A stretch of DNA of 35,758 nt, taken from Candidatus Omnitrophica bacterium UBA2593. GTDB lineage: Bacteria > Omnitrophota > Gorgyraeia > Gygaellales > UBA2593. Position numbers and translations under genes: made by a program. Positions 12,001 through 33,000 of the stretch are shown here, piece by piece. Numbering within the stretch: position 1 is the stretch's first letter; each line of letters opens with the position of its first letter. The stretch covers positions 1 through 35,758 of the forward strand of contig DDKR01000153.1 of the NCBI GenBank assembly GCA_002340085.1, in the 5' to 3' direction. The notes under the pieces were generated by a model that searched no databases, was not told the origin of the DNA, and saw nothing but the letters and a program-made list of their open reading frames with translations.

Positions 12001-15000
12001 TTATACTTCTTATACCTTTACTACCCAACGGCTCTTTACTACTATTGGAGAAATAGTCGGGGACTTAGAAAAGGAAGAAACTTATGCGAAAAATAACTTT
12101 TTAAAAGCACTAAATGCGATTTTGAATCCTTCTTCAAATTTTTCTTCACAATTAAATACTCAACTATCAGAGAAAAGTAGTCTTTTAACTGATGCTTCCA
12201 TTGTGGTTAAAGAAATAGATGAAGCTATCAGAGTAAATAAGATTGAGCTATCCTCTTCTCAAACCCAAGCTGTGCAAGATGTCTTAGCTTTAGCAGTTAA
12301 TCCCGTAGTAGACCTTGGTGATGACCATGAGCCTGTTTCATACGGATATAAGAGGTTACACCGGATTGCCCAAGGAAAGGCTTGGATTGAGTATCATCTC
12401 GGCTCTACGCAGAGTAAAGATTTCATCAGTAGGATGCCTTACTATGCTCAGGAATCGAGTGCTTGGATAGGAAGATACCTGGGAATAAATGAGAGTTGGA
12501 ATCCAGTTTTATTGAATCCGGTCTCCTGGATTCCAATCTCGAGAATAAGGAGATTTGTCCTTACCTATAAAGATCGGGGAGTAGAAAGTCTCTACAAACA
12601 AGCTTTAATAAATCCCGTAAAGTATGAGAGAAGCTTAAGAGATATTTCTCGGTTTATCTCTCCTGGACGACCTGATTACGCTTCTATTTTCTCCTCTCTT
12701 GTTCTTCCATCCGCATTTTTATCTTCCAAAGTACTTACTAGCTTAGGGTTAGGAGCAACCCTTTTAAGTTCTCCATTTATACTTGCACCTACAGCAGCTC
12801 TCTTAGGTTTAATTCCCGCTCATCTTTTAGCTAAATACTTAGCCGAACACTGGGGAAGAGATGATAATTTTGCCCGCATAAGTAAACAGTTAGATAATAT
12901 CACTGATAATAGGGAGTTAAGAGAATATCTCTTATCTTTGCGTTTAGCAGCCCAAAGAGCTCGGGAAGAAAATCTCAGCCAACTTTCTCAGTGGAAGAGG
13001 GTTCCTCAGTCTTTGCGTCCTCTTTCTCCTTTTGGTTCTTTCTATACTAAATTAGATAAGAGAGAGTCAGCAAAGAAGCCTTTTGAAGCCACAGTAGCTG
13101 AATACTATACTCCTGCTTCTTATGCTCCTCGATTATCTACTACTGAAAAGATAAAGAGAGTTCATGAGTTTTTTAAGGGAGTAGATAGCAAGAGAGCAGA
13201 GAAATTTAATTTAAAAGAACTTATTGAATATCTCCAACTTTCTCCCGGAGAAAAAATCCATAAATTCAATAAGTATTTTAAGCTTGATTTTACAGAGGAG
13301 TGGAAAGAGATCCAGGAAAAATCAGAGCAGAAAAGATCTTCCTTAGCTACAGTTAATCTAATAAAACAGGGACTCTTTAATGAAAAAGAGAGAAGGTTTT
13401 CTCTTCTACAGGTCCTCGCTGCCACAACTGAACCTATCAAGCAGGCAGATTTCAATTTTATTACAAAGAGTTTTCAGCTCCAAGGTAGACTTTCAGAATC
13501 TAGGCCTAAGAACGATAAGGAGATCCAAACCAACCAAGAGATCATTAACTCTGCTTTAGAAGAGATTGTTTCTTTAGCCGACAAACTTAGTTTCAAACAA
13601 AGAAGAGAAGAGTTGTTAAGAGAAGCAAACACAGGTGAAGTAATTAGGAGGATAAATAAGATTCTGGAGGGTAATGAAGATTTTGGGAAAAAACTCCAAG
13701 CCATATATGAACTTTCTGCAGATGAAATTTTCAATTCATCAGAGCGCCAAGAAGCTTTAGAATATTTGTTACCAAAGCAAGCCAACCAATTACCAAATCA
13801 AGCCAACCAAAAGGTAGATTTATCTTCTTTAGAGCAAGCCCTGAACTTTCTTAAACAAAGTCTAAGATATGCTCAAGAAGAAGCAGAGAAGAGTATAAGT
13901 GATGATATGGTAAAAGCAGTATGTGAAAAGATGCCGGGGAAAAAACTCAAAGATCTTAAAAAAGAGTTAGAAGGTGATTTAAGCTACTCTATCTATAGTA
14001 TTCTTACCTCACAAAGTTCATCTGAAAAACCATTCCTTAAGAAGATTTCTCAGATCGAAGCTTTAGCTGAAATTACTGCTTCTGATTGGATCTATCACTT
14101 AAGAGCAAAACAGGAGATCCATAACTCGCTTAGAGAGGCTTCGAAAGACAAAGAAAATACCACATTAAAAAATATCCCTCAAGAAGATTTCCTCAAGTCC
14201 CTCACTGAAAAATACTACATCTCTCCTCAGCAGATCTCTTCCTTACGCCAGCTCTTCAGGGATTTTAAACATCTGCTTGAGATGCAATTCAAAGCCAAAG
14301 ATGAGAAGGATAATATTAATCTCTCTTTCTATGAAAAAGGTTATTATGAGGTTAGCCTACCACTCATAGAAGAAGTATCTAAAGAAGTTACTGGTTTGCT
14401 TAAGGATTGGGTAGAAGGTAAGAATTTAGATAAAATTTGCTCTTCTTCTGAAAAATTAAAGGAATTTCCTTCTCTCATTGAGAAGACCGCAGTCTTAAAG
14501 GAAAATTTAGCTACCTATGAGAAAGAATTAGGTATTCCTCATCAAAGAGCAATAGATTTCTCTAAGCAACCTCAAGAAGCTTTTGAGCTTTTAGGAATAA
14601 GAGGAGTCGAGCTAAAAGTAGATGAAAAAGTAGAAACAAGAAAGCTTCTTTTAGATAAACTTAATACCGCAATCCCCTTACGTGCCCAAGGACTCCTTCC
14701 TTTTGGAATAAATCTTTTACAAGTTTCTACGCCCCAAGAAGACCCTATCCTTCAAGAGATAGAAAGAGATCTCAGCAGTCCTATTCAACAAGACATTCAA
14801 AATAAAGTCTATGAGACTATCCTTCAATTCCCCCAACTAAAAAAGTATCTAAAAGATAAAGTCGATGATCCTCTGAGTGTAGATAAAGCGATGGAGAAGG
14901 TCAAAGAATTGTTCTCTGAAGGCAAGATCTCTTTAAAACTTGCTTCTTCTCATATCGATACAGTAAAACTCATTGATCGGACTACAGAAGGTAAGGGTTA

Positions 15001-18000
15001 TGAAGTATGGGTTCCTTTGGAAAGATTTCAGATTACTTTAGGTGAAGGAGGCAGATTCGGATTTAAACTGAGAGATGTAGGAAGATTAGAGGCTCGACAC
15101 GAGATATTAGGACACTTATTCGCTAAATTTTTAGGCATACCCTTAGGAGAGTCCAGAGATGCAATCTGGGGGTATAATGCTACTGAACAGGTAGCCTTAA
15201 CCCTTACCTCTGTCGATGCTATAGAGTGGGCGAAAAAAGGAAGAAGATTAACTCCTGACCAGATATCCTATATCCATGCAGTTACAAAGATCAGTCCAGT
15301 AACTCGACCTTCAAGATTGAGGTTCTGGTTAGAGAAACGTAAAAATTGGGATAATGAAAAAGATGCTTATATGGATTCGATGCGGTTATTTTATTTTGCC
15401 CAGGCAAAAGGTGATGATTCTCTTGCTGAAATTCTTTCCCATAAACTGTTAAAAGGATTTGGGAAAAAAGTTTCTCGTTTACCTTCACTTTCTTTTATAA
15501 GAGAGTATATTAACAGAAGAACTTCTTTTCTACCTCGACAGGGTTATAAAGCCTTCTCCCAAGGAGCAAAGAATACACTTGGCAAAAATGAAGGTACTAC
15601 ACCTATCGATGGAGAATGGATGAAATTAGAACCTCCTTCTTTGGCAAGATACTACTCTCTAAATTACCTTTCTTCATTCCATCCCCAAAAATCTGAACCT
15701 CCTTCTCTATTAGGTCCAGAAGGAGAAGATTCTCTCTATAAGGATTCTCTCTACTTAAATCAAAAATTAGATGAGATAGTTAAAGAAAAAGGAATTATTG
15801 AAGAAGTACTCAATGATGAAAATTTTAAGAAAAGAGTAAGAGAGAAAGCAGGTTATTATAGCCCCACAACATCAGCCTATTATGTAGAAACAAAAGGCAC
15901 CATCTTATACCGCGAGGGAAGAAATGCTTGGATAAGATTACACGAGATAAAACATGCCTTAGATGACATAGATTCTCCATACGGAAAACCCTCCCAAAAA
16001 CTAATAAATTTTTACCGTGAACTAAAATCCTTTTCTTTTGCTTTTGGACAGGGTGGAGATTTAACCGAAATAGAGGAGTCTTTAAGAAAATACGATAACC
16101 CCTTAGAGGACCTATTAGATTCACTCCTCTGCGAAGGAAAAACAGAGATATTTAGAAAAGACTTGAGTATAATTTTGAGACGTGCTGAAAAAAACCCTTG
16201 GTTTGATCAGATTAAGATCAATGGGTTTAAACAGGAGATGGGTTGGTCGGAAGGGAAATCGTCTTGGTCTATAGAAGAACTAAATAAGCCAGAGATTTTA
16301 AACCTTTTTGACAAGAGCGAGTTTGGTATAGCCACAGAACTCACTGCCTACATGTTCAATGGAGTAATCGAAGGAGATAAGGAGATTATTAAGTTTACTG
16401 ACTTCTTCTTAACCTGGCCTGAAGGACAAAAATTATGGAGAGATCACCTTGAGAAAATTGGCTTAGGTAAGATTGCTCAACTCCACATCGATCAAGTCCA
16501 ACAGAGAAAGAAGAAAGAAACTTCCTCTTCACCTTTTGTTCAATTAGGTATCCTTCAACAAAATCCTACTATAGGTATAGATAAGAATGGTAATGTCTTT
16601 GGTGGTGGTTATCCAGTTTGGGGACCATTTTATAATGAGGTATTAGAGCGATTAGGACAAATAACTCCTAAAATAGATAGGTATAGATCTTCTTCTTCAT
16701 TGTGCGAGGGGAAAAGAGAGAAGATTTTACTTACGGCTTTGGCAGGGATGTCCCCAGAAAATTTTAGAATTAATCCTCAGGATGATAATGATTCGGTGGG
16801 AAGAATTAGCTCTCAAATACCCACATCTGCCTCTCCTGTAGCCTTTAATAGGATTCTTGATTTGTTTGGAAGATATATCAATTCTTTTAAAAATTCTTTA
16901 ACTCTACCTGGCTCTTTAGCTAAGAAGGTGTATGATAGGTATAGGTTGGGTAAAAATAATAATGTAGAGAATATACTGAAGCAAGTTTTTAACAATCAAT
17001 TCTGGAAAGGAAAAGTAGAAATTCCAGAAAATTTACAGCGCCCCATTCTTCCTAATTTTGAATTTACCAAGATAATTCCAAATTTCCAGGAGTTGAAATT
17101 ATTAAATCTTACAGAACAAATAGAACAGATGAACCAAGGATTACTGTCCCTTTTTTCCTCTGTAGAACAAATGAATCAAGGAGTACCGCCTCTTCTCTCT
17201 TTGCGAATAAACCCTGATTCATTAGCGCAAAAAATAGCAGAGCTCAACATAGCAGAACTTAACAGAATAGCAGAGCTCAACATAGCAGAGCTTAACAAAA
17301 TAGCATCGCAAATATCGCAACAGAAGCCTATCTTCTACAGGAATTATATATCTTTTGGAAAATCTCCTGAAGAGAATGATGAAGTTGATTTCTATTCATT
17401 ACTATCTCAAGATAGATATTTTGGTGAAGGGTCCATTATTTCTAAATCCAGCATTCCTAAATTCGAGACTCCCGAAAGACTCAGGTTAAATACTACTAAA
17501 AGACAACTCCTATTTCCTGATTTTTCCTCTGTTACTCTATCAGGTCCTTCTTCTGCACATCATCTCAGTATCTCTGAACCAAAAAGAGGAACTAATTGGG
17601 CAAAGAGGAGCATAATAATAGGTTTACTTTTACTCTCTTTACTCCCTCTGAAAGATACTCCTAATAATAAATCAAACCTTTCGCCTTCTCTACTAATGCC
17701 TCCTTCCGTTGCTGATACCATTAAGCCCGAAGATATTATTTATACTGTTAAACCCGGAGATAGTCTCTGGAAACTTGCTAAGGAGCATTTTGGAGATGGT
17801 AGTGATTGGCGGAAAATTTTAGAGCTCAATCCCCAATTAAACGGTCGCTTAGGTAACCAATTAACACTAACTGGTGAGGAAAGAATAATAATTCAACCTG
17901 AAGAGCCAATTAAAATGCCCTCTCCAATTGGAAAAAGCTCAGTAGGTGTGGCATTTGTTGCCTCCTCTACATACATAGAAGTATCATTTACAGAGCAGTT

Positions 18001-21000
18001 AATGAGATGGATTGGAAAGGTATTATCACTAGTACTTGGCTTTGCTCCATTTCCATTAGGAATTATTCTTCCATCAGTGAAAATGAAAGGGGAGAAGGAA
18101 AGAGGAGTAGAGTTTGTTTCTTCCTTCCTCCCAATCTTTAATGATTCTCTGCTGGTTATTATGCTCGAGGAGGGAGCTAAGAGGGCAGTACTTCCGCTTA
18201 TCACTGAAGCCACCCCTATTGATGGTCTATCTTATCTCTTAATCAATGAAAAGAAAGAGTTTAGAAGAACGCTTACTACCCCCAGATCAACAACAGAAAG
18301 ATTTGAAGGTGTTGCTTTGCCACCTTACTCTATTATTTCAATCCCTGCACTCTTTAATATGGTGGCATTATCTCTTCTGAACTTTATTCCTAAACATAAT
18401 ATCTTAGGCGTCAACAACCTTTCTGGTTTTCTCTTACCAGTATTAACTGCACAGAAGAGAGATCAACGTTCTCTATCAATGGAGCAGCAGCGACTTGGAG
18501 TCTTGGAAATGGCTTTAGGAGCCCTGTTGTTAGCTATGATGAAAGCCTCTTCTTCATTGACTAATAGGCTGCTGGTGGTGATGTTCAATAGAGATAGTTT
18601 GCCGACTCCTCAAGGAGATTCTCAACAGAACCAACGGTCACAACGGCCAATTGGAATGCCACCTACAGGATCATCATCAATAAATGTAGGTGCAGTGGTG
18701 GGGAGTAGGAGTCAATCGACACCAGCACCATCAGAAATTAGTACAAGTCCATTAGATCCCAGTAAATTGGCTCAGATTGAAGATATAATAAACACTCTGC
18801 GATCTTTCATTGGAATGATATTAATGCGTGCTGGACCCATAAGTTCTGCGACAGCGTCATCTTGCGCAGACGCTCAGTCGCAAATAATAGCGCAAAATTT
18901 AGCTGTAATAGCTGTAATAATATTAGCTATATTAGGGAAGTGGAATAGATGTGAAGGAACCGGGAATACCCAAGGTCTGCCTGTAGGTGCAGATAGTCGA
19001 GGTATAACTGGAGATTCCGGAAAGAACTCTAAAAACAGATTCCGAGGTTCCAGTAGTGCGATTTTAGGTGAGCGTATAGCGGATAGCGTAGAGGATAGAG
19101 CAAGTATAAATACGTCTTCATCTCTAAATAATAGACCTCAGAAAGATCTCGCAGGAAACCATAGTTCCCTTAGTCCGCCTATACAGAGAAATGGTTCTCA
19201 AAGCTTAGGTAAATGGTCTAAGTTAATTATTCCTGAACTTGTCAGTGGGTTTAAGCGTCTTATTAATATAATTCTATCCACTCTATCCACAGAACCCCAG
19301 CGCCATTTTTCCAATGTTCTATCTGCGGTGGCAGTTTCAGGATTAAAAGTTAATGAGAACCTATTTCAGGCTACCATTCCTCCAGGAATTTTTGGGGGAG
19401 TCTCTTTAGCTATCCTTGGTTTGTTATTCATAGCAACGCTTGTAGGAATTGCTTATATAATTTTCAGCGCCAAGCCCCCAGCACAAAGTATTGGGGGAAA
19501 TACTTCTCCGCCATCTACTCTGAAAACTCAAGGTGTATATGGATATTCAAGGAATCCTCTATATACACTCTATCTTCTCTTGGCGGCGATTCTTACTATA
19601 TTTGGAATAGATGGTTTTGCTGAAGGGAAAGCTTGGGAAGGAGCCATCCTTATAGGTGTTGCAGTCTTCCTTACTCTTCCTTCTCTATTTTACCTTCCAA
19701 AAGAAGAGGGTGAATTACTATCTAAGTTTGAAGAGGCGTATAAAGAGTATAAAGAAAAAGTTCCACGTTTTGTCTCAACAAAGGTAGCGATTTGCACCTG
19801 CTCCATTTTATTATTCTTACTCTTAGGAACACTTGGTTGGTTAGATAGATGGGTTGATTCCATTGTTGATTTTATTACTCTGACCGTGACATTATCCTTG
19901 TTCACCTTATTCCCGTTATTCCTGCCAAGAATAACCACATCCTCATCTACAAAATTAATGGAGAAGGACTCCAATCAGATTAATGACTCTCCTCGGGCAA
20001 ATTCACCACTTACTATCTCCAACCTTGCCAGAAATTCAGTTCATCATCTAATTTTTCAGTTTAAAAAGATTCTTTTTGTGATTGTGATATCGTTTAAATT
20101 GCTAGTATCCGGCTATAATTTTGCTGTTCCTAATGCATTCTCGTCTCCTCCATCTGTTCCACCCGCTCAAGTACAAGTAGTAGAACAATTTTCTATTTGT
20201 GAGGCTTTAGGAGAGATAAGACAACTTGAAGGAATAGAGGTAGTTTATCTTGATGAAAAGAGGGTTTGGATTTTGATTAAAGAGAAGGGAAATTTAGAAG
20301 AATTAAAGCCAAAGATAGAAACTTTACTTAATAAGACAGGGTTATTCTGGAGAGGAGAAGAAGAAATTAATCCTGTCCCATTCAGATACATCTTTACAGT
20401 ATATCCCAATGTAGAAAAGGAAGAATTAGAGGTAAAGATAAAACCAAGGAATAACACGGTGGTTATTATTCAAGGAGAGTGGGCAGTGACTAGTGCTACT
20501 GATGAAAATTACAAGTTAGCTACTTGGGGTCTTGGTTCGTGTATTGGTGTATTGATATACAATCCTACTACTAAGATTGCGGCCATCACCCATGTTGATT
20601 TCGAAAATGCAGTCTTTTCTACTGTAAAAGAGATGCTTCTTGCAATAAGGACTGAAGGAAAAGATGAGATTCAAATATGGTTCACCGATAATATAGGTGA
20701 AATGGAAAAAACAGTAATCATCAGTCAATATAATTTGGACTATCGAGGTGATTTGCCGCGATCATTCGTGTTTGATACCAGAAACAGCGGACTTAGAAAA
20801 CTTTCAGAAGAGGAGATTAAAAGACTTGCCAACGATGAAACTTTAGATAAAAGACTAGGTCAAATAACCGATAAAAGAATAAAGAATTCAATTACATCTT
20901 GTATAGAAAGGTATGATGGTACTTCGTCTCCAATAACAAAAGGAAGGAGAACTTCTAAATCCAGAGGTCCCCAAAACGAAAGAAATCTTTTGTCCAGCAG

Positions 21001-24000
21001 AGGAGGATCTTCTAGTGCGATTGAGGTTGGGAAGAAAGGGATAGAATCGCTGTTGAATGGTAGAAGCACGCTATTTTCTTATTCTAATGAGCAAAAGAAA
21101 TCTAACCAAAGAAGTTGTTCTCCTCTTCGCGGTCCACCCAAAATTGGTGGAATTGGTAGCCTCGTCTCAACAGTTCTCGCCACCATCCTATTACCCGCAT
21201 TAATACCCCTTGCAATCATTGCTGGATTATCTTCCATTATTTCTGGTCTAATAGTTCAAAAAGGAATAATCAGTCTACCATTTCTCTTTGGGCTCACCGT
21301 GGAAGTCTCAAGAGAGATGGTTTTTGTTGCAAATGGGGTGTCCGTAGGAGTCCTAACCTCCAGGATGGCCCCTTCTACGGACCCCATTGCAACTATTATA
21401 GGAGGTGCATTATGTGTCCTATCAAGTTTGATAAATTACAGTTTGACCATATTGTCGAGTTTACCAATGATAATACTATCTTTGCTGCAGCCCGCCAAAA
21501 CAGTAGTCATAACAGCAATGGCCACCTTAGGCTATTTCTTATTAACCAGTCCACTGGCAATGTTTATTGTCGCAATGGTTGTGCTGATTCTTGGGAACAG
21601 CTTAGAGGCTCTACCCGTGATACCGTTATTGCTCAACTCATCGCTGCTCGCAACAACCATATCCCAGTCTATAGAATTAACGGGGGAGGGCTTCAATCGG
21701 ATTGAAGCCCCTTCTCCAGTTCAACCTGCTCTTGAAACCACCTCCAGTTCGATACAAAAGGGATCCCAGTTGAGTTTGTTTAAGAAAATATCTTCTGTCA
21801 AGAAAGGGAAATCTTATCCTTTTATAATTGCAGTAATACTTCCCATTCTTACATTTTTCCCCATCGTCAATACTTACCAACAATATAAGGTTAGCTATCT
21901 AAGAGATAAGGAGGCAATAGAGAAACTATTAGAGGAGAAATCAGATTTGCTTCATTATTATCATTCACATTTATCTTTTTCTAACATCCGTAGGATTTTG
22001 AAAATATGGATCAATTCTCTTTATCAAAATTCTGAACAAAAGAGAGAATTTCTAAAACATCTTTATAGATGTAAGTCTGTTGAGGAGATCATAGCTAATG
22101 ATAAATTGCCTGCCTTGATAAGGCTTTATGTAGGAGGGTTTATTAAAGGCGATGTATATGGCAACCGCTATCAATTATATCCAATAGCAAAACAACTCTT
22201 AAAGGAGACAGAAGATGAGAATATGTGGAAGTTACTTGCTTATCATAATAAAGTTACATCTCTTGGGAAAGTTACATCTCTTGGGTATAAGAGTATATTG
22301 TGTGATGATATAGTAAGAACTTATAGTCTTGCAGTGTTATTAATAATCGACCAAGAAATTCTAACAATTACAGAAGAAAAATTCCTAACAGCTATGGAAT
22401 ACATAAGATCTGCTCAGGTGTGTGGAGAAGCTCAGTCTTATATAATCAGAGCAAATAGAGAGTTAGTATTTGGAGGCAAAGAAATAGAAAAAGATAGGAA
22501 TATTAAATTCTTCTCAGGAACGATTGCTCATGAGATAGCACATATAATTGCTTATTGGCCCATCGAGGTCAGAGAAGTCGATGAATTCTTCGCAGATTTA
22601 GTTATGTTTGTCTTCTTCGAAAAAATGGGTTGGAAAGAAGATATTTGGATGTCTCAGCAAATGGTAAATTATAAGGAGGCTGTAGAATACGCTAAAGATA
22701 ATGGATGGGTAGTAAATAAGAAAGAACCACATACTATTGCGCGCACACAATTAAAGGTTATAGAAGATGCTATTAGAGAATATGAGGGCGAGGTATCTTG
22801 GGAAGAGATTCTTAAAGCTGCTTTAGATCCACGTTGGACGGATAAAAATCGCAACCGGTCGATAAATAATGGCTTAAATCTTTTCAGAGGTAATTCTATT
22901 GGCGATCTGTTAAACTCGAACTTAAAAAAGAAAATAACAAAGCGAATAGCTCAGTCTTATCCAGAAAAAGACTCTCCTATTTGGATAATAGCTAACCATA
23001 TGCTGGATGAAATCCTGAAAGATAATCACAAAAAGGATAGTATTGGAGAAAGGACAGGATATGGTAAGGTTAGGATTTATCGACCTCGAAGTAGATATAA
23101 AATAACATATAAGCAGGAGAAGGACGCAACAGTAATAATAAAGACAGATAGAGTAACTGGTAGTAAGGTAATTTCCCGCTATCCTACTAAGCCTATTCAA
23201 TACAGGAAGTCAAAGAATAAACCCTTTAGCTCTTCTCCTGTCGATACTTGGGCTATCGCTATAGGTTATGAAGGATTAGCTGGATTGTTTAATGGAATAA
23301 TTGATCTATTAAACCAACTATCTCTCTTATGGCTTGCCGTGGAGGCCTTAGGAGAGATGGTTTTTGTTGCAAATGGGGTGTCCGTAGGAGTCCTAACCTC
23401 CAGGATGGCCCCTCCTACGGACCCCATTGCAATTGGAGGAGGTGCATTATGTGTTCTATCAAGTTTGATAAATTACAGTTTGACCATATTGTCGAGTTTA
23501 CTAATGATAATACCATCTTTGCTGCTGCTCGGCAAAATGGTGGGTATAACGGAAACGGGCATCTCAGACTATTTCTTATTAATCAATCCACTGGCAATGT
23601 TTATTGTCGCAATGGTTGTGCTGATTCTTGGGAGCAACTCACTGGTTCTACCCGTGATACCGTTATTGCTCATCTCATCGCTGCGAAGAACAACCACATC
23701 CCTGTCTACAGGATTAATGGAAAGAGCCAGCAGTAGTCTACAGACCCAATCTACTTCTTCGCCACTGCACATTTTAGTCTTTGGCCCAGAACATTTAGCC
23801 CCGCAAATAAAACGCAAGATTAAAGAGAGATTTAAACAGATTGAGATTACCACCGTCGGAAATTATAATAGCTTTTTAGTAGACTTCGGTAAAAATAGAT
23901 TTCAGTTACTTATTATCGACGGTGTTACATTAAGTGTTACATTAAGTGAAAAAGGAGAAGTATGGGAGGAACTCGAAAGATTAATTAAAAAAGTAGTTGA

Positions 24001-27000
24001 GAAAAAGAGCAGACCAAGGATTATTATTCTATGTAGTAAAGATCTTGAACAGAAGATAGAGAAACTTAAGGAAGAGCATTCTTTAAAGATTGTATTTGTG
24101 GAGGACTATCCAGCGGGGAGCAATGTAAAAGGGTTTCTTGAAAGAATAAGAGAAGAACTGCACTTAAAAAAAGTAAGTTCACCACTGGTTAAGAATGTTT
24201 CTATTCCGATAGATGTGCGGTTAACTAAGGAGAATAGAAGGGATAGAATAGAAGCAATTATGGGCTCGCTGGGAGGATCAATTTTAAGTTTAAGTTTTCT
24301 TTACCTTCCGTGGCCGGTGGTGAGAGGATTTTTCTTCTCAGCGGGCCTAAGAAAATATCTTGCTCTATTCACTAGGAGTCCATCTCTTACATTCGCTTGT
24401 TTAATAACTGCTTCCATCTTCCTCACTTCAATCATATTCTTAGTTCTCAATTCTCAACTATTAACTGGACTTTTAACCCCGCCACCTATCTTAAGAGCTA
24501 CCGTGGCAGTTGTCTTAGGATTGATGGCTTTTGTTGTAATTTGGGAGAGGTTGGCAGTCCTAAACCTCCAGGAGACGGCCCCTGTCAACCTCCCTATTAC
24601 AACTAATACAGGAGGTAAAGAAGGAATTCAAACTGAGACTCCCAATCTTATTACCTCCAATCATGCTACTTTATCAATTAAGTCTATTATCTCCAGTCCA
24701 GTGGCTTCGCCGCTCATTACCTCCAGCCCTACCATGACAGCCTATACTTTAAGAAAGGCAAATAATTTAAGGGAGGAAGATTCACCACTCACCACCCCCA
24801 ACCTTACCATTTCCAGCTCTGTTACCTCATTTGAGGAATTTCTTGCTGGTATAAAGAAGTTAGAGGAGTGTCTGAAGGTTTTAGAGGAGTATTTAAAAGG
24901 AGCCCTTATTCCTACTATAGAAAAGACTACGAGAGAGATAGTAGATATTTTCAATAATCCCTCCTTTAAAAAGACATTAAGCAAATTTTTAAACGAGGAA
25001 ATCACCCATGAAATAAAGGCTGACTTGACTATAGTATGTGGGTATTGCCAGTTACAGGCATCAGAAGAAGAGAAAGAGCGTTCTATAGAAAAGCTCAATT
25101 CAATAAAAGCGCGCTTGATTGAAGTTAAAATAAAAGAAATTCTTTCACATTTTTCTTCTAGAATGGGATGGAGTGTTTTGATTTTGGCAGAGAATACCCA
25201 GAGATTAGAAGAACTTAAGGCGACATTCTCAAAATTAGGTGAATCAGAGTTAGTAAGTAAGACAGAAGAAATAATAAGAATTTGTAGACAAGAAGTCACC
25301 CTTCAACAGAAAAGCGAGTCTTACCTCGAGGCTACAGAGATAATTAACTCCATCCAAGATAAGCTTTCACCCGAAGGAAGTCAAATTGAACCCTCCACAG
25401 CTCAGACAACTTCACCACTCAAGATTGCTTTTAGTCCAATGGGTTTGTTGTCAGTTAGAGTCAAAAGAGATATAATAGGAGCAATTGTGGGTCTGCTGGG
25501 AGGAATTTTAGGTTTTTTCTACCTCACGTGGCTGGTGGGGAGAAAATCTATCTTTCCAGCGGGCCTAGAAAAATATCTTGCTTTACTTATTCACAGTCCA
25601 CCTCTTACATTCAGCTGTTTAGTAGCTACTTTCATCCTTCTTAACTCAATAAACTCAATAGATCTATCTCTAATCCCATCCTCAATCTCCAATCCTCAAT
25701 TATTAATTGGATTCTTAACCCGGCCACCTATCTTAAGAGCTACCGTGACAGTTGTCTTAGGATTGATGGCTTTTGTTGTAATTTGGGAGAGGTTGGTAGC
25801 CTTAACCTCCAGGATGGCCCCTGCCAACCTCCCTATTACAACTGATGGAGGAGACAAAATTTCTTATTATTCCTTGAGGAATACTGTAGAGAGAGAGCTT
25901 AAAGAGAAAAGGCTTGATTGGTATTTTATCTTCAGGAGGATTAAAGACCAAGGTTTTTCAGCTGCTTCGCCTATCAGGATAAAGAATGTGGTAATAATAG
26001 GAGTTCTAATAGTAGCATCACTTTTTGGGTTGTTAAAGTGCAGGGATTTTTTAAGAAAGCAGGATGAAATGCTTGAGGCAATGGAGATTCTTCGGGAAGG
26101 AAGAGAATCCACTTTTGGTCCGAGTTTTGGCGTGCTTTCACCAGAAGCCTTAAAAGAATTGATAAACTCCAAAACCTCTTATTCTCATCCAAGGTCGGTT
26201 ATGGAGTTGGTAGATAAATTGGCTTCTCTCTTTGGTGTATCTCCTACTGATGAACAAAGGTATGATTGTTTACTGAAGATTCAGACGATGGAAGGAAAAA
26301 TCAACGGATACAAAGGTTATATTTCAGAATTAGAAAGACGCTTTGGTTTACCTTCTGGGATAATGGGTGCAATTATAAGAGCAGAGATGTTTGGCTTAGC
26401 ACCTTTTGAAGAATTCACTGATTCTATAGGAGGGGTACTTACAGGAAAGACTTCTATAGGTCCTACTCAGGTGAGGATAGATACTGTGCGGATGTTATAT
26501 CCAGAGTACAGAAAAGCTTCTAACTTCAGGATTACTCAACTTCTTCAGGATGATAAATTTGCCCTTGAAGCAGGAGCAAAATATATACAGTGGTTAGTTA
26601 AAAAGATGGGGTTAGATCTTAAGAATTCTGGAGATCGGTTAAGGCTTTGGGTTGCTTATACAGCAGGACATCAATCACCGGCTTTTAAAGAAATCAGAAA
26701 ACCTCCATTTAGAAGAAATTTTAAAAAGGAAGATTGGGTTGCCAATGAAGCATGGGCTTATGCCTATGTAGCGGAAGCATTTTGCCGATACTTATCTACA
26801 CGGGCTTCTTCTGAGGCCTCTTCATCTTCTGTGGCTGATGAGAAGAAATCTGTTTTCTTAAAAGGATGTCGTGCAGTTAGAATCACCAGTTTAGCATCAG
26901 CAATTTCATTTTTAGGAACAATTCCTTTATTTACTCCTTTGGTGTCTTTTGCTACGGTATTGGCGGTGGGGATAGCTGTTTATTATGGGATGAAGAAGAT

Positions 27001-30000
27001 TGTTGGGTTTGTTAAGGTTGGTTTGGTCTTTAATCCTCAGCAAAACTCAAGGAAAGATGAGCTTGACGAGACTGGAGTTGGAGCTGAGATTAAAGAATTA
27101 ATTGATAAGTTTGGGAGAGTGTTGGAGGAAGTTCTAATAGGGAGAGGAGATAAATATTCTGAAGATATTTTTGCTGAGCAGTCTGAGGTAGCTTTATTGG
27201 TTCAGTCTACAAAGCAAGTAGTAGAGATTGCTTGTTCTAAAGGTAAGACATATATCTTAGCTTTAGCAGCTCTAATCAAATACCGTACAACGGGTATTCC
27301 TTCCTTGGCCTTTGTTCCTGCTTTTGGTTTAGGTTTAGATGCCTTTGAGAAACACAGGATACATCAGATATTAGGTAAGGTTGATCCTAATTTTAAGGTG
27401 GGTTTGGTAGATTTTGCTGAGGGAAAGGGTAAAATCTATGATGGGGATGGCGAATGGAGAGAAGTTAGTATAGCTGAAGTTTATAGCAAGTGTGGTTTGG
27501 TCTATAGTACAGTAGAAGATACAGTGCATAATTATTTAAGCGAGCATCTATCCCGAGAAGATAGAGACTTAGCTTTAATTACTCGCAAATGGTGGGTATT
27601 CTTTGATGAAGTGCATTTGACTTTGTTGGGTGAGCGCTTAGGAAACCCATTTGTTATCTCTGAGATGACCAAGCAATATTCAGAAGTTGTAGAAGAAGCC
27701 AATGATATAGCAAGAGAACTTTATGAGTTAGTGGAAAAAAATGGGGCTCTTCTGAAGAGCGAATATCATAGGATAGATGAGAAGGATAGGAAGGTAAAAC
27801 TTACTAGAATAGGAAGTAAATTTGTAAAAGAAAGACTTAAAAAGACAAAGTTATTGAGAAATCGGGGTAATTGGAAAGACTTTGTAGATACTGCCTTATG
27901 TGCTTGGTTCTGTTATAAAGAAGGTAGAGATTATCTTCATAATCCTGGTTTACCAGAGGGAGAAGAGATTTCCATCATTAGAGAGAGTGGAGAGAGAGGA
28001 AAAGAATCTTACAGCCATGGTTTACATCAGGCAATTCGTGCTAAACACGGCTATAACCCATTCAGAGATGGAAAGACTATTGCCTCAATTATGTTAATGG
28101 GTTTCCTAAGTGATCTGGAAGTGGTAGAAGGTTACTCAGGAGTGAGCGGGACCATAGATAGAGAAATGGCAAATGCTTTAGGATTAGGGGTTCAGATTAT
28201 TGAAGAAAAAGAGAAGCCAAATATCGTTCAAGAAGGATTTATTCGGATGTCAGTAAAACCAGATATTCAAGGATTGGTAGAGATTGTAGTAGAAAAAGTT
28301 AAGAGAGGACAGCCGGTTTTAATAAGGGTAGAAGATATTTCTCGGGTTGAAAAGGTAAAGGAAGCTTTAAAGGTAGAAGGCCTGGAGATAGAAGTGAAGA
28401 GTTTAGATGCCAGGACTGAAGCTGGTGAGAGACAGAGAATCCTTGAGAGTGCAGGTAAACCAGGAGCAGTTACTGTTGTTACTGCTGCGGGCAATACAGG
28501 TATAGATATCAGTCTTATGGAAGAAGCGATTGAGAAAGGCGGTTTGACAGTTATAGCGTTTGGCCTCTTGGAAGACAGATTGCAAGAGATACAACTGATG
28601 CGACGGGCAGCAAGGAGGGGAGAACCGGGAGAGTTTATTGTTTTCGGTTCACTTGAAGATAGAGTAGTAAGGCTTTATGCTAAGGATTATATCCCGGTGG
28701 CTAAAGGAATTTTAGAGAGAGCAGCAAAAGGTGATAGAAAAGCTCAGATTAAAGTTAGAAAAGTGGTTATGCAATTGCGTAAGACAATTAAAGATGCGAG
28801 ACTTCAACAGATCAGAAGGAGAGTTAAGATAGAGCAAATGATTACCCAAGCTTGGCAGAGGCGTTGTAATTTGAGAGAGAACATTAAGAATGGTTTGCTG
28901 GTAGAGGCTGTGGCGAAACTGATCGGTGTAGAGTTGAATGAGGAGAAGAAAGAGCAATATCAACAAGCAGCTTTAGAATTACTAGATAGGTATTGGGTTG
29001 AGTTTATTGCACGGTGCGATGAAGCAAGATATCAGCTGCTCAATAGATTTGGTTATGATTACACAGAGTGTCAAGGTATTCTGCAATTTCCAGTTGATTC
29101 GCAGTATATGAAAGAGGTAGGTAGATACACCGACGAGTTTATGTATTATACAGAAGCTAATACTTTCCTCTATATGTTGAAAGAAGCAGGAAAGAGTTTA
29201 GATGATTTGAATCTTAAGAGATCCTTCATTTACTGGTTTAAGAGAGTAAGGAATTTTGTTGTCCAAAAAAGTCCAGTTGTTATAGCTGCTGTAATTTTAT
29301 CCTTTGTAGTCTATGGGTTATACCGTCTGAGTTTTGGTTTATTTGGGCTTATCTCAACTCCTACACAACCCTCTGGTTTTGCCCGGGTTTTGATTGATTT
29401 TATTGTTAGTCTGTCTGCTCTTAATCAGGTATCATTGGTTGCAATCATAGTGATTGCGATGGTCTTTCTCTTATTCATTAATCGCAACCTTATCTTTCCG
29501 GCTTTAGCTAAAGACAGAAGCGAAAACTCGTTATCCGATGCTCTGTTTGGAATAAAGACAGAAAACCAGAATTTGACTTCATTCTCCCTCGCAGTTTACA
29601 AGAAGGTCTATCCAGTTATTGCACAGATTAGTACAGGAGTATCTCTAGTTATATTCGGCTTGTCTATTTTCACTGGTAGTAATTTGCTACTGAGTACAGT
29701 AGCATTTATCTCTATCTTCGCTTTAGGACTAGCTTTAATTACTTTGAGTGATTCAGGGTTAAAGGCATATATAAGACAAAATAGGATTTCTCTGCCATCT
29801 ACCTTGTTTGGGAGTTACGCTTACTATTTTGCTTTTAGTATCTTGGTTTATCTGGGAGTAATCTTTGGATTAGGTTATTTTGGCATTACTCCTGTGGTTA
29901 TGGATATGAGTATCTATTTGAGTATAGTTATCTTAGGGGGTGGGCTCCTTGCTTATTTCATCTATATGATGAATCAGTATTTGGATAGACGGTTTAATGA

Positions 30001-33000
30001 TAAACCCAAGGAAGTAGAACGAGATGTCGCTTTTGCTGGCATATTAGGAAGTGGTGCTTTGGCGGGCTTACTTATACATCTCCAAGAGATGGAATTACTT
30101 ACCCCTAATACTATTTCTACTATTTACGCTTCAATTTGGCCGGCGGTTCAGTTAACTGTAATATTAATGTTTCCACTCGCCTTGGTTGTTTTAGGTAAAC
30201 TTATTTTTGGTATTACGCGTGCTCAGATGTTGGGTGAAAAGATAGTAGAAAATGACGGTGTGGTTTTGAAGAGAGGTTTTTCGGAGAGTGTAAGGGAAGT
30301 CTTAAGATTAAAGCATATCAAGACTTGTATTGGTGTGGTTTTACGGGCGTTGATAATAAACATTATTCCTACCAGTATTATTTTTGGTGGTCTGCTTTTC
30401 TTATGGAAGATCTATACTGATACAAATATCGCCTTGGGGCTATTAAATACAATTACTCCTTACTCTTTAATAATAGCAGGAGTTGTTTTGATTATAATTT
30501 TAGCAACTTTAGCATTTAGTCCTAAAAAGGTAAGTGTAGCAACTGGTACAGTGTTAGGTGTGGGTGCAGTAGGGGGTATGACTATGGTTCAACAACAGAC
30601 AGGGCAAATGATCGAATTTAAAGCCTATTGTGCTGAACTCTTCGGAATTTCTAGAGAAGAATTTAAAGATCCGCGGGTAAGGATAGCCGTAGAAGAAATG
30701 AGAAAAGAGATAGAAAGATTAAAATCAGCCACTAATGATTCTTCTAAGTCCGGAAGAACTACTACAGCTGGAGGTACGCAAGGTAATCAGACTACAAATG
30801 ATCCAGATAAGACTGAATCATCTAAAGTTAACTTACAAGAGCCTCCAAGAGGGGGAAAGATTGAACCACTGAAAGAAGGTCCAGGTAATACCTTCTCAAA
30901 AGAAAATCCTCACAATAAATCTCCACCAAAATCTCAAAGTAAATCCTTCCTACAAAAACTCACTTCTTCTCTCAAAGAGAGTTTGAATTCTTTGAGTAAT
31001 CTTTTCATACCTTCTCTTAATGCTGAAGAAATAGATAACTTCCACAGCACCAGAGTTTATACTGAGAATACCACCCCAGGAGTGGAAAGAGAAGATTGTC
31101 TTTCTTTACAAGAGCCAGTTAAATGGCATCTTCCAATTAAAGTTCCTTATACTCTAACCAATGAAGGTAAATTTGGTGCTTCCAGAGATAGAGATGAACT
31201 TAGTGAACCAGGTTACGGTAAGCCAGATGAGATACCTCATACTGGCCTTGACTTCTGTGTTCCAAAAGGAACGCCTATATATGCAGCTTTAGAAGGCGTG
31301 GTTATCTTTAGCGGTGAACTTAATGGCTATGGAAAGACAATAATCATCAAGCATTCAGAGGGATGTTATACCTTATATGCTCATAATCAGGAAAATTTAG
31401 CTAGAGAAGGAGAGAAAGTCTCTCAGGAGACAGTGATTGCTAAAGTCGGCCGGAGTGGTAATGCGGGACAAGTTGGAGAGATGCTTCATTTTGAAGTAAT
31501 AGAGTCAGAGGTTGAGCTAAGTAATTATCAGGGATTAAGAGAGACATTGGCTACGGGAAAAGCAAAATATCGCAATCCTGAGGAGGTATTGGGATTGACT
31601 ATTTCTGATCGGGTAGTGGAAAATGGTGATTTAACCTCAACATTAGAAGAAAAAGCGGAAAGCTTGAGGGAACTTTTGAATTCAGGAATAGAATATTACA
31701 ATCAAGGAGATTTTAAGACTGCTATAACGATTTTCAGTGAAGGCATTAATTTAAACCCTTCCTTCTCTGAGGGGTATTTTTGGCGAGGAGCTACTTATTA
31801 TCATTTAAAGCAGTATTATGAAATGATAGAGGATTTTAAAAGATCTGAAGAGGTTAAAGAGACCAAACGGGAAATAGTATCTTCTTACACAAAAGGAGAA
31901 ATTCTTATATATAATAGTGGTAGAGTTCTTGAGGGAGGAGATCTCCAAATCAAATCAGAAGAGTTATTTTCGAACTATTTATTTTCGAGTGTTTTAATTG
32001 AAGATGCTAAAAAATGGATAGAGAGACTAGAATCAGCTCGTCTTCAAAGTAATATTTCTAAACCAGAGGAGAAAGAAGGGCCGGTTATTTTCGTATTGGA
32101 TAAAGGTGTGAATGCAGATCTTGTTGGGGGTTCAATTAAAGGTATAGGGAATAAAGGAGATTTAATAACCTGGTTAAGTCATGGCACTTTTGTAGCAAAG
32201 GTTATTCGTGATCTGTCTTCAGCTGAGATTATATCTATTGACATAACGAGACAATCAAAGACAGGCCCCCTTTTCGTTACAGATACAAAGAAGATTTCCC
32301 AATCTCTGATTCAGATACTCGCCTATATGAAAGAGAATCCCAGGGTAAAGGTAATAGTAAATATTTCTTTCAGTGGATCTTTTGGAGACTTCAATGATCT
32401 TTTAGATGTAGTCTTAATGCAAGCTATTATCCAACAAGGTGGAGTTATTGTTGCAGGCGCAGGGAATGAGGGCACTTCTTTATCTCGAATATCCAGGTAT
32501 CCTGTTTGTTATCCGGGTGTTATTGGGGTAGGCGCGATTAAAAAATCAGGAAACAAGGCCGATTATAGCAATTGGTCTAATGGCCTTCTCGTTGCTCCTG
32601 GGTGGATTAATGGGAGTGAGGAATGGAAAAATTTAACCAAAGAAGAGTACGGATGCGATATTGAAGAAATATATGGTACTTCCTTTAGTGCTCCTTATGT
32701 TGCTGGTCTAATTGCTAAGATATGCGAAGAATTTGGGTTCACACCTCAGCAGGCATATAAGATTATTGAAGAGACTGCAGAGCCTTTAAAAGTTTTTGAT
32801 AATTCCCCGAATTATTTCTTGAAAAAAGTTGATCCTTTCCGAGCATTAAAAAGAGCAAGAGAAGAGAAATATTCCAAACCCGCATTGGAAAGGGTCGGAT
32901 CATTATTTAATTTTCTCTTTCCACCACCTCTTTATGCTACAGGAGTAGATAATTCAACTACTACAGAACAACCTAATCTTAATTTCAAACCCGTATCGGA

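What the first reader, a model, noticed from the sequence alone, without database searches (positions are those of the whole stretch)
21404..21640. Zero-substitution patches in the nested ORF coincide with hydrophobic helices of the giant frame, a signature of simultaneous constraint in two frames
Between the two copies, nested codons 4-17, 47-61 and 67-74 show no nucleotide change at all, not even at synonymous sites. Flanking stretches are dense with silent changes. In the giant frame these invariant patches encode exactly the helix-like segments that are identical in both copies: ALCVLSSLINYSLTILSSL, PLAMFIVAMVVLILG and LPVIPLLL. The variable patches encode the connecting loops. This mosaic is what true dual coding predicts. 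Where both products matter, nothing changes; where only the nested protein matters, its synonymous sites drift. It argues that the giant ORF is read through this region as a transmembrane hairpin while the same DNA also encodes a soluble ~95-aa protein.
Basis: inference. Interest (0 to 1): 0.85.

Follow-up and report, generated by a model that had tools for sequence, protein, structure and literature searches.

The report
Small gene nested in giant gene

Summary
Between the two copies (21412-21705 and 23449-23736), nested codons 4-17, 47-61 and 67-74 carry no change, and this clustering exceeds chance (P about 1e-4 to 1e-3).

Dual coding is real:
- The nested ORF belongs to a conserved ~90-aa family with a confident fold.
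- AGGAGGTG precedes its ATG in nearly all loci.
- 29 of 37 substitutions fall at its third codon positions.
- The overlapping frame stays open across the nested ORF in 88 of 89 loci, where chance gives a median of 6e-4 per locus.

The patches do not recur. Other pairs of similar divergence have silent changes inside them. The giant-frame residues there vary freely (L/S/W, I/T/M). 18 of 42 homologues have no helix-like window. Hydropathy matches what the nested protein's codons dictate. The mosaic most likely reflects patchy gene conversion between the two intragenic copies.

Also new: a roughly 130-nt two-hairpin RNA element with strong covariation and a CCUCC loop lies just upstream of the nested ORF. 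It is always on the sense strand (105 hits). The window holds four copies, two of them without an ORF. It is absent from Rfam.

The parts
2..35758 (+). Giant ORF in frame 2. It runs off both ends of the window (at least 11,919 codons). It contains LysM, SecA preprotein-binding and SecA P-loop/helicase-C domains, as reported for Omnitrophota giant proteins.
   Evidence: paper 10.1101/2023.11.21.568195
21280..21399 (+). Structured RNA element, copy 1. Hairpin H1 has an apical CCGUGGAAG. Hairpin H2 (21326-21393) has the closing stem GUUGC/GCAAC, a mini-hairpin with CCUCC in its loop, and a 3' bulge UGGCCCC.
   Evidence: CM hit of 80.4 bits, E = 5e-17; MFE -46.6 kcal/mol, z = -2.1; covariation across the family
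21400..21407 (+). Shine-Dalgarno sequence AGGAGGTG, 4 nt upstream of the nested ATG. The giant frame reads it as Gly-Gly.
   Evidence: present in nearly all of about 85 homologous loci
21412..21705 (+). Nested ORF copy 1 (frame 1, 97 aa). It encodes a member of a conserved ~90-aa protein family.
21421..21462 (+). Zero-substitution patch 1 (nested codons 4-17). Giant frame: SSLINYSLTILSSL, hydropathy 1.05.
21550..21594 (+). Zero-substitution patch 2 (nested codons 47-61). Giant frame: PLAMFIVAMVVLILG, hydropathy 2.75.
21610..21633 (+). Zero-substitution patch 3 (nested codons 67-74). Giant frame: LPVIPLLL, hydropathy 2.59.
23320..23436 (+). Structured RNA element, copy 2. Its SD lies at 23437-23444.
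   Evidence: CM hit of 78.8 bits; alignment
23449..23736 (+). Nested ORF copy 2 (frame 1, 95 aa, 88% identical in protein to copy 1).
19879..19983 (+). Decayed third copy of the nested ORF. Only the C-terminal third is recognisable (SDRDIILVHLIPVIPAKNNHILIYKINGEGLQSD**). The nested frame has stops upstream, while the giant frame stays open.
   Evidence: tblastn E = 1e-7
24481..24624 (+). Orphan copy of the RNA element. An SD-like AGGAGGT follows it, but no ATG and no nested ORF.
   Evidence: (66 bits)
25723..25863 (+). Orphan copy of the RNA element with no nested ORF. It is part of a second intragenic duplication (24238-24619 against 25465-25858).
   Evidence: (52 bits)

Best explanation
The region is a cassette embedded in the sense strand of an Omnitrophota giant gene. 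The cassette is a structured RNA element of about 130 nt, a strong Shine-Dalgarno sequence, and a small gene of about 90 codons.

The small gene is the frame under protein-level selection. It is most likely translated on its own by internal initiation at its SD and ATG on the giant mRNA. Its product is a small globular beta-rich protein of unknown function that is inherited together with giant genes.

The giant frame lies one nucleotide downstream of the nested frame, so nested codon position 3 is giant position 2. Selection on the giant frame through the cassette is essentially only for staying free of stop codons, so that translation of the giant protein is not interrupted. The peptide it encodes there is rich in Leu, Ser, Thr, Ile, Ala and Pro. 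That composition is a by-product of the nested gene's codons. It looks like membrane helices in this window but is not conserved.

The three zero-substitution patches between the window's two copies are a feature of this pair only. They are most likely tracts of recent gene conversion, or partial homogenisation, between two old intragenic duplicates 2 kb apart.

Shown: the nested family and its fold; the SD and ATG; the switch of selection between frames; maintenance of the open giant frame; non-reproducibility of the patches; the RNA covariation.

Inferred: internal initiation; gene conversion as the cause of the mosaic; any regulatory role of the RNA element. One such role would be the CCUCC loop masking the SD until a ribosome translating the giant frame melts the hairpins.
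For: Nested gene:
- 35 homologues of 89-99 aa at 55-75% identity. A profile search found 188 clusters, mostly 80-110 aa.
- 18 invariant columns in the alignment. AlphaFold2 gives pLDDT 84 and pTM 0.75, with six strands and one helix.
- AGGAGGTG lies 4-7 nt before the ATG in nearly all loci.
- In many loci a nested-frame stop lies 1-5 codons upstream of the ATG. This excludes entry into the nested frame by frameshifting from the giant frame.

Frame of selection:
- Between the two window copies, 29 of 37 substitutions are at nested position 3.
- In orthologous pairs the flanks vary most at giant position 3, while the nested ORF varies at nested position 3. In L035/L037 the rates at nested positions 1/2/3 are 0.06/0.02/0.25.
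- The cassette is far more conserved than its flanks. In L042/L081 the RNA element has 0 of 140 differences and the nested ORF 10 of 255, against 25-62% in the flanks.

Giant frame open:
- The +1 frame is open across the whole nested ORF in 43 of 43 genome loci and 45 of 46 metagenome loci, usually for thousands of codons.
- The exact probability of no stop, given the nested protein and the flank codon usage, has a median of 6e-4 and a maximum of 0.08.

No conserved giant-frame peptide.

The mosaic is specific to this pair:
- The clustering is significant, but in other pairs the unchanged runs fall elsewhere.
- Third-position divergence is about 52% in codons 18-46 and 0 of 37 in the patches. 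This is bimodal, as a mix of old and recently exchanged tracts would be.
- A near-identical block (1 change in 73 nt, 21320-21392) lies outside the nested ORF.
- The gene shows repeated intragenic duplication.
Against: - No expression data exist for either product.
- Gene conversion is inferred from pattern alone. With only two full copies, no formal test such as GENECONV was possible.
- Patch 1 shows somewhat reduced silent variation in other pairs too (0.22 against about 0.34). A weak general constraint near the 5' end of the nested ORF therefore cannot be excluded.
- In this window's lineage the giant-frame peptide is mildly more hydrophobic than the null (z = +1.3 and +1.7). A lineage-specific membrane role is not excluded.
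- If the contig comes from a short-read metagenome assembly, mixing of reads between the two copies could create identical tracts artificially.
Confidence: 0.7

Rival explanations
1. The invariant patches are places where both proteins are under purifying selection, because the giant protein crosses the membrane there as a hairpin of helices. The variable patches are loops where only the nested protein matters.
For: The patches are real and non-random. Patches 2 and 3 are strongly hydrophobic in the giant frame (hydropathy 2.75 and 2.59). W1 and W2 each have three windows of 19 residues with hydropathy >= 1.6, against about 1.6 expected. Omnitrophota giant proteins are reported to have many predicted transmembrane segments.
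Against: The patches do not recur in other pairs or across the family. Giant-frame residues at these columns are unconserved. 18 of 42 homologues have no helix-like window, and hydropathy is not above the stop-free null (mean z = -0.3). The enriched base is C, not T. Patch 1 is less hydrophobic than the variable stretch beside it. An equally invariant block lies upstream of the nested ORF, where there is no dual coding.
Confidence: 0.08
2. A constraint specific to this lineage, other than gene conversion, keeps the patches invariant. Candidates are RNA structure within the nested mRNA, or a membrane role of the read-through peptide acquired only in this organism.
For: W1 and W2 are mildly more hydrophobic than the null (z = +1.3 and +1.7) and poorer in A at nested position 3 than expected (0.10-0.12 against 0.22). 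Patch 1 has somewhat fewer silent changes in other pairs as well.
Against: Zero changes at 37 third positions next to about 52% change requires near-absolute selection. No other lineage shows this.
Confidence: 0.13
3. The mosaic is an artefact or chance. Either random clustering of substitutions produced it, or reads from the two 87%-identical copies were mixed during assembly or polishing.
For: Assemblies of related genomes often break at this repeat. Contigs L002-L008, L019, L056, L073 and L074 begin inside or just before the RNA element. This shows the region is hard to assemble.
Against: Chance alone is unlikely (P = 1e-4 to 7e-4). Both copies keep intact ORFs in both frames and an intact RNA element. 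Assembly mixing cannot be checked without the reads.
Confidence: 0.07
4. The cassette is a selfish, frame-compatible repeat, like the Rickettsia palindromic elements but carrying its own small gene. It spreads within and between giant genes and is tolerated because it never introduces a stop in the host frame.
For: There are multiple copies per gene, tandem arrays, orphan elements and a decayed copy. The element forms hairpins. The cassette is much more conserved than its flanks. Flanks are non-homologous in most locus pairs.
Against: In several related pairs the flanks are co-linear at equal distance from the cassette, which fits vertical inheritance. All 105 element copies are on the sense strand, and G-U pairs are common in the stems. 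Both point to function at the RNA level. No transposase-like features were found in the nested protein. It is absent from viral contigs. This rival concerns the origin of the cassette and is compatible with the best explanation of the patches.
Confidence: 0.2

Closest known systems
comS nested out of frame inside the srfA-B non-ribosomal peptide synthetase gene of Bacillus subtilis (from my own knowledge)
   Same: A small ORF on the same strand lies in a different reading frame inside a very large ORF, has its own ribosome-binding site, and is translated from the large gene's mRNA.
   Different: ComS is 46 aa and confined to a narrow lineage. Here the product is a folded protein of about 90 aa, conserved across a phylum, sometimes present in several copies per host gene, and preceded by a conserved structured RNA. 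The host-frame peptide here shows no conservation.
Rz1 embedded in the +1 frame of Rz (phage lambda spanins) and gndA inside gnd of E. coli (PMC11230408, abstract seen)
   Same: A same-strand gene is fully nested in an alternative frame, and both products are made.
   Different: In Rz/Rz1 both frames encode functional, conserved proteins that act together. Here only stop-avoidance could be shown for the outer frame within the overlap.
Rickettsia palindromic elements: selfish hairpin repeats inserted in frame into protein-coding genes (Ogata et al. 2000, from my own knowledge; reviewed in PMC10969869, listed)
   Same: Hairpin-forming repeats of about 100-150 nt sit inside ORFs without breaking the frame. 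They add a passenger peptide and occur in many copies.
   Different: The element here is always on the sense strand, is conserved with covariation across a phylum, was seen only in giant ORFs, and is usually coupled to an SD and a small gene.
SD-sequestering leaders and riboswitches, and translational coupling by ribosome-mediated unfolding (for example the MS2 coat and replicase genes; from my own knowledge)
   Same: A conserved structure lies directly 5' of an SD and carries a loop (CCUCC) complementary to it.
   Different: It lies inside a translated ORF. Orphan and tandem copies keep CCUCC with no SD beside them. No ligand or switch is known. It has no Rfam match.
Omnitrophota giant genes (10.1101/2023.11.21.568195; 10.64898/2026.06.07.730766)
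   Same: The host ORF has the reported features: more than 10,000 codons, SecA DEAD/preprotein-binding and LysM domains, and many hydrophobic segments.
   Different: Term searches of both papers found 'nested', 'ribosome binding', 'Shine-Dalgarno', 'hairpin' and 'RNA structure' absent, and the passages containing 'overlapping' did not concern overlapping genes.

Membership tests
Same-strand nested overlapping gene (dual coding) | The inner ORF is intact and of conserved length in homologues. | tested here: met
   About 75 full-length homologous ORFs of 87-105 codons were collected. A profile search found 188 clusters.
Same-strand nested overlapping gene (dual coding) | There is purifying selection in the inner frame. 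| tested here: met
   29 of 37 changes between W1 and W2 are at its third positions. Orthologous pairs give rates of 0.01-0.11 at positions 1 and 2 against 0.09-0.52 at position 3.
Same-strand nested overlapping gene (dual coding) | The inner ORF has its own translation start signals. | tested here: met
   AGGAGGTG lies 4-7 nt before a conserved ATG. Nested-frame stops lie just upstream of the ATG in many loci.
Same-strand nested overlapping gene (dual coding) | The outer ORF is kept open through the overlap more often than chance allows. | tested here: met
   88 of 89 loci are open. The chance probability has a median of 6e-4 per locus.
Same-strand nested overlapping gene (dual coding) | The outer-frame amino-acid sequence is conserved within the overlap. 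| tested here: not met
   The commonest residue covers less than 70% of sequences in most giant-frame columns, with alternation such as L/S/W and I/T/M. Synonymous variability of the inner frame is about 1.0 of expectation. Hydropathy equals the null.
Same-strand nested overlapping gene (dual coding) | Both products are detected. | not testable with these tools
   No proteomic or ribosome-profiling data were available.
   The maximum 19-residue hydropathy is 2.66 in W1 and 2.79 in W2, with three windows >= 1.6 in each. This rests on a Kyte-Doolittle scale only; no dedicated topology predictor was available.
   18 of 42 homologues have no such window. Mean z against the stop-free null is -0.3 for mean hydropathy and +0.3 for the best window.
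cis-acting structured RNA (leader or riboswitch-like) | It has a conserved secondary structure supported by compensatory changes. | tested here: met
   81.9% of cells are paired, against 39-58% when partners are slid. 25 of 30 pairs have double changes, and 0 of 500 shuffles reach the observed values. 21 of 21 pairs are compensatory across 57 sequences. The mini-hairpin stems covary.
cis-acting structured RNA (leader or riboswitch-like) | It has a fixed position 5' of the regulated start and pairs with the SD. | tested here: inconclusive
   The last element ends 5-25 nt before the SD, and its loop CCUCC is complementary to GGAGG. But orphan and tandem copies without an SD keep CCUCC, and both motifs are nearly invariant, so no covariation test is possible.
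cis-acting structured RNA (leader or riboswitch-like) | It matches a described RNA family. | tested here: not met
   Rfam 15 gave no hit at E <= 1 other than two chance-level matches. No tRNA or tmRNA was found.
In-frame palindromic selfish repeat (RPE-like) | It is a multi-copy, hairpin-forming repeat inserted in ORFs without breaking the frame. | tested here: met
   The window has four copies. Tandem arrays occur elsewhere. All copies lie within open giant frames.
In-frame palindromic selfish repeat (RPE-like) | It shows insertion polymorphism or target duplications, and occurs in unrelated genes and in both orientations. | tested here: inconclusive
   All 105 hits are on the sense strand of giant ORFs. 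Only loci chosen through the nested protein were searched, so occurrence elsewhere is unknown.

The most novel reading that the evidence does not exclude
Omnitrophota giant genes carry a conserved internal cistron. A previously undescribed structured RNA holds the ribosome-binding site of a small out-of-frame gene. Translation of that gene is gated, either by a ligand or by ribosomes translating the giant frame and melting the hairpins. The cell would then make a dedicated ~90-aa partner protein in step with synthesis of the giant protein. This would be a phylum-wide case of regulated dual coding plus a new RNA class. It would also mean that some of the 'transmembrane segments' predicted in giant proteins are read-through by-products of this gene.
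Probability: 0.35. Interest if true: 0.85.

Novelty: new variant of a known kind. Interest (0 to 1): 0.7.

Why it matters
- Conserved same-strand nested genes are rare in bacteria. This one is present across a phylum and always sits inside the largest known bacterial genes.
- It gives a clean natural example in which one frame is selected for its protein and the other only for staying open. That separates 'dual coding' into two different kinds of constraint.
- Gene callers report the giant ORF and suppress the nested gene. The family is visible in databases only where assemblies break at the repeat, so it is systematically missed.
- Predicted membrane helices at these sites in giant proteins should be treated with caution.
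- The upstream RNA element is a strong new candidate for a structured cis-acting RNA. It also explains some of the assembly fragmentation of these genes.
- The nested protein and the RNA offer concrete handles for studying how giant genes are expressed.

Tried and rejected
- Function of the nested protein: no significant hit in Pfam, NCBIfam, PHROGs or PADLOC; Foldseek against PDB and BFVD, best E = 0.2 and 0.03; PDB sequence profile search.
- The only distant signal is similarity of residues about 21-66 to FG-GAP and tectonin propeller blades. This is too weak to assign membership.
- Entry into the nested frame by -1 frameshifting from the giant frame: rejected. Nested-frame stops lie 1-5 codons before the ATG in many loci, and the SD and ATG are conserved.
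- An internal sigma-70 promoter in front of the nested ORF: the consensus scan found none there.
- Selection for hydrophobic helices in the giant frame: rejected by the stop-free conditional sampler.
- Chance as the cause of the mosaic: rejected by permutation.
- A search for close relatives of the window's copies with a degenerate DNA pattern (NVYCRNGCADSWEQ) in metagenome contigs found none. The decisive within-lineage test therefore could not be run.
- Phage association: the element and the protein are both absent from viral contigs.
- The W1/W2 row of the position-tally script failed because the two flanking windows overlap. The tally was used instead.
Full report
**The setting.** The whole 35,758-nt window is one stop-free reading frame (frame 2, at least 11,919 codons) that runs off both ends. 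It encodes LysM, SecA preprotein-binding and SecA P-loop/helicase-C domains. These match what has been described for the giant genes of Candidatus Omnitrophota (10.1101/2023.11.21.568195). A unit of about 415 nt occurs twice, 2037 nt apart: 21277-21683 and 23317-23720. Each unit carries an ORF in frame 1: 21412-21705 (97 aa) and 23449-23736 (95 aa). The giant frame starts its codons one nucleotide after the nested frame, so nested position 3 is giant position 2.

**The observation.** The substitution list confirms that nested codons 4-17, 47-61 and 67-74 carry no change, while the stretches between are full of silent changes. In codons 1-91 there are 37 substitutions: 29 at nested position 3, 6 at position 1 and 2 at position 2. 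At the codon level, 24 codons changed only synonymously and 8 changed the amino acid. Permutation shows the clustering is not chance: the three longest unchanged runs sum to 37 codons or more with P = 1e-4, with or without weighting by family variability.

Two descriptive points are weaker. Identity of the giant-frame peptides in invariant DNA is automatic. And patch 1 is less hydrophobic (1.05) than the variable stretch of codons 18-46 (1.38 and 1.32), so 'invariant = helix, variable = loop' holds for two of three patches.

**The nested ORF is a real gene.**
- It has 35 homologues of 89-99 aa at 55-75% identity. A profile search found 188 clusters, mostly 80-110 aa. The alignment has 18 invariant columns.
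- AlphaFold2 gives a confident globular model (pLDDT 84, pTM 0.75, six strands and a helix).
- In 43 genome loci, nearly all Omnitrophota MAGs, and in 46 metagenome loci, the ORF starts with ATG. In nearly every case AGGAGGTG lies 4-7 nt upstream.
- Nested-frame stops often lie only 1-5 codons before the ATG. Entry by frameshifting from the giant frame is therefore implausible, and independent initiation is the best reading.
- No functional annotation could be obtained. The only signal is a weak resemblance of residues about 21-66 to propeller-blade repeats.

**The giant frame is constrained too, but only to stay open.** The +1 frame is open across the whole nested ORF in 43 of 43 genome loci and 45 of 46 metagenome loci, usually for thousands of codons on both sides. 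Given each nested protein and the codon usage of its flanks, the exact probability of no stop has a median of 6e-4 and a maximum of 0.08. In orthologous pairs the frame of selection visibly switches. The flanks vary most at giant position 3, while the nested ORF varies at nested position 3. The cassette is far more conserved than its flanks.

- Across 42 homologues, synonymous variability in the three patches is about 1.0 of expectation, as elsewhere. The giant-frame residues in those columns alternate freely among whatever the wobble base allows, short of a stop: S/L/W, I/T/M, A/V/G/E/D.
- In 34 other pairs of comparable divergence, silent changes occur inside the patches. The fractions are 0.22, 0.33 and 0.29, against 0.27-0.39 outside. 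Unchanged runs fall at other places.
- 18 of 42 read-through peptides have no 19-residue window with hydropathy >= 1.6. An exact sampler that keeps the nested protein and forbids stops shows observed hydropathy is not raised (mean z = -0.3; W1 +1.3, W2 +1.7).
- The base in excess at nested position 3 is C (0.40 against 0.26 expected). That gives Ser/Pro/Thr/Ala in the giant frame, not hydrophobic residues.
- The helix-like look of the peptide here is therefore largely a by-product of the nested gene's pyrimidine-rich wobble positions.

**What the mosaic most likely is.** Third-position divergence is about 52% in codons 18-46 and 0 of 37 in the patches. That is a bimodal pattern. An equally invariant block (1 change in 73 nt, 21320-21392) lies upstream of the nested ORF. 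The gene has a history of intragenic duplication: a decayed third copy of the nested ORF at 19879-19983 and a second duplicated unit at 24238-24619 and 25465-25858. Patchy gene conversion between old duplicates is the simplest account. A lineage-specific constraint and an assembly artefact remain possible and could not be tested. A degenerate-pattern search for close relatives found none.

**The wider finding: a conserved RNA element.** The ~130 nt before the SD form a conserved two-hairpin element.
- H1 has a GCCGC/GCGGC base and an apical CCGUGGCAGG.
- H2 has a GUUGU/ACAAC base and a long stem whose sequence varies but whose pairing is kept.
- H2 also has a mini-hairpin presenting CCUCC in its loop, and a 3' bulge CUGACCCC.
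- Covariation is strong. 81.9% of cells are paired, against 39-58% for slid controls, and 25 of 30 pairs carry double changes. 21 of 21 pairs are compensatory in 57 sequences. Frequent G-U pairs point to RNA on the sense strand.
- A covariance model finds 57 + 48 copies in the loci held, all on the sense strand and often in tandem before the nested ORF.
- The window has four copies: 21280-21414 and 23320-23451 before the nested ORFs, and two orphans at 24481-24624 and 25723-25863 with no ORF.
- Rfam has no match. The element is absent from viral contigs. Many assemblies break inside it.
- The conserved giant-frame motifs (PSVAG, LQGLTP) are the translation of this RNA. In the window the frame over CCUCC differs from that in other loci, which shows that the nucleotides, not the peptide, are conserved.
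- CCUCC is complementary to the SD. Masking of the SD, relieved when a ribosome on the giant frame melts the hairpins, is an attractive mechanism. It remains inference, and orphan copies keep CCUCC without an adjacent SD.

**Context and novelty.**
- In a remote clade the same small protein is a free-standing cistron between two ORFs of more than 750 codons. This suggests that the small gene is the older frame and that the giant ORF reads through it.
- Flanks are co-linear in some related pairs, which fits vertical inheritance. They are unrelated in most pairs, where giant proteins have diverged fast or the cassette has moved.
- Term searches of two papers on Omnitrophota giant genes found no mention of a nested gene, an internal ribosome-binding site or an RNA structure.
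- The closest known arrangements are comS inside srfA-B and Rz1 inside Rz (nested same-strand genes), and the in-frame Rickettsia palindromic elements.
- I class this as a new variant of a known kind.

Noticed in passing
window 21280-21414, 23320-23451, 24481-24624, 25723-25863 (also 57 hits in L002-L051 and 48 in L055-L100): A conserved two-hairpin RNA-like element of about 130 nt lies inside giant ORFs. It has an apical CCGUGGCAGG, a CCUCC loop and a CUGACCCC bulge. It is always on the sense strand, shows strong covariation and has no Rfam match. Two of the window's four copies have no nested ORF after them.
   Followed up: yes
window 19879-19983: A decayed third copy of the nested ORF. Only its C-terminal third is recognisable, and it ends in the same GLQSD** tail as copy 1. 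The nested frame has stops upstream, while the giant frame remains open.
   Followed up: partly
window 24238-24619 and 25465-25858: A second intragenic duplication of about 380 nt (73-87% identity). It carries the two orphan RNA elements and a hydrophobic stretch of the giant protein.
   Followed up: partly
L017 9737-9973, L033 6856-7086 (also L061, L067); L011 3671-3877: In some loci a diverged second small ORF (for example MCRNFRDLIFTHFVVASEGAVFGSARENGNNH...VYRTN) sits between the RNA element and the canonical nested ORF, in the same frame. These are tandem paralogous nested genes. L011 has a further diverged copy 6 kb upstream.
   Followed up: partly
L053 2270-2563, L054 350-643 (protein P0130); P0085: In a remote, low-GC clade the homologous small protein is a separate cistron. 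The preceding ORF of more than 750 codons stops 8 nt into it, and the next large ORF starts 15 nt after it. This may be the ancestral, unfused arrangement.
   Followed up: partly
nested ORFs of 42 loci (window 21412-21705 and 23449-23736 included): Third positions of the nested codons are enriched in C (0.40 against 0.26 expected from flank codon usage with stops forbidden) and depleted in A, G and T. The cause is unexplained. It may be the nested gene's own codon preference, or selection for Ser/Pro/Thr/Ala in the giant frame.
   Followed up: partly
contig ends of L001-L008, L019, L056, L073, L074: Public assemblies often end inside or just upstream of the RNA element. Gene callers report the nested protein mainly at such breaks. 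Elsewhere the giant ORF masks it, so the family is under-represented in protein databases.
   Followed up: partly
protein P0090 (220 aa) and locus L099: In these sequences the reading frame passes from the giant frame into the nested frame within the cassette. This may be a sequencing or assembly indel, or a natural frame fusion.
   Followed up: no
window about 17200-17320 (giant aa 5735-5770): A short in-frame tandem repeat in the giant protein (AELNIAELNRIAELNIAELNK), plus duplicated MNQG motifs nearby.
   Followed up: no
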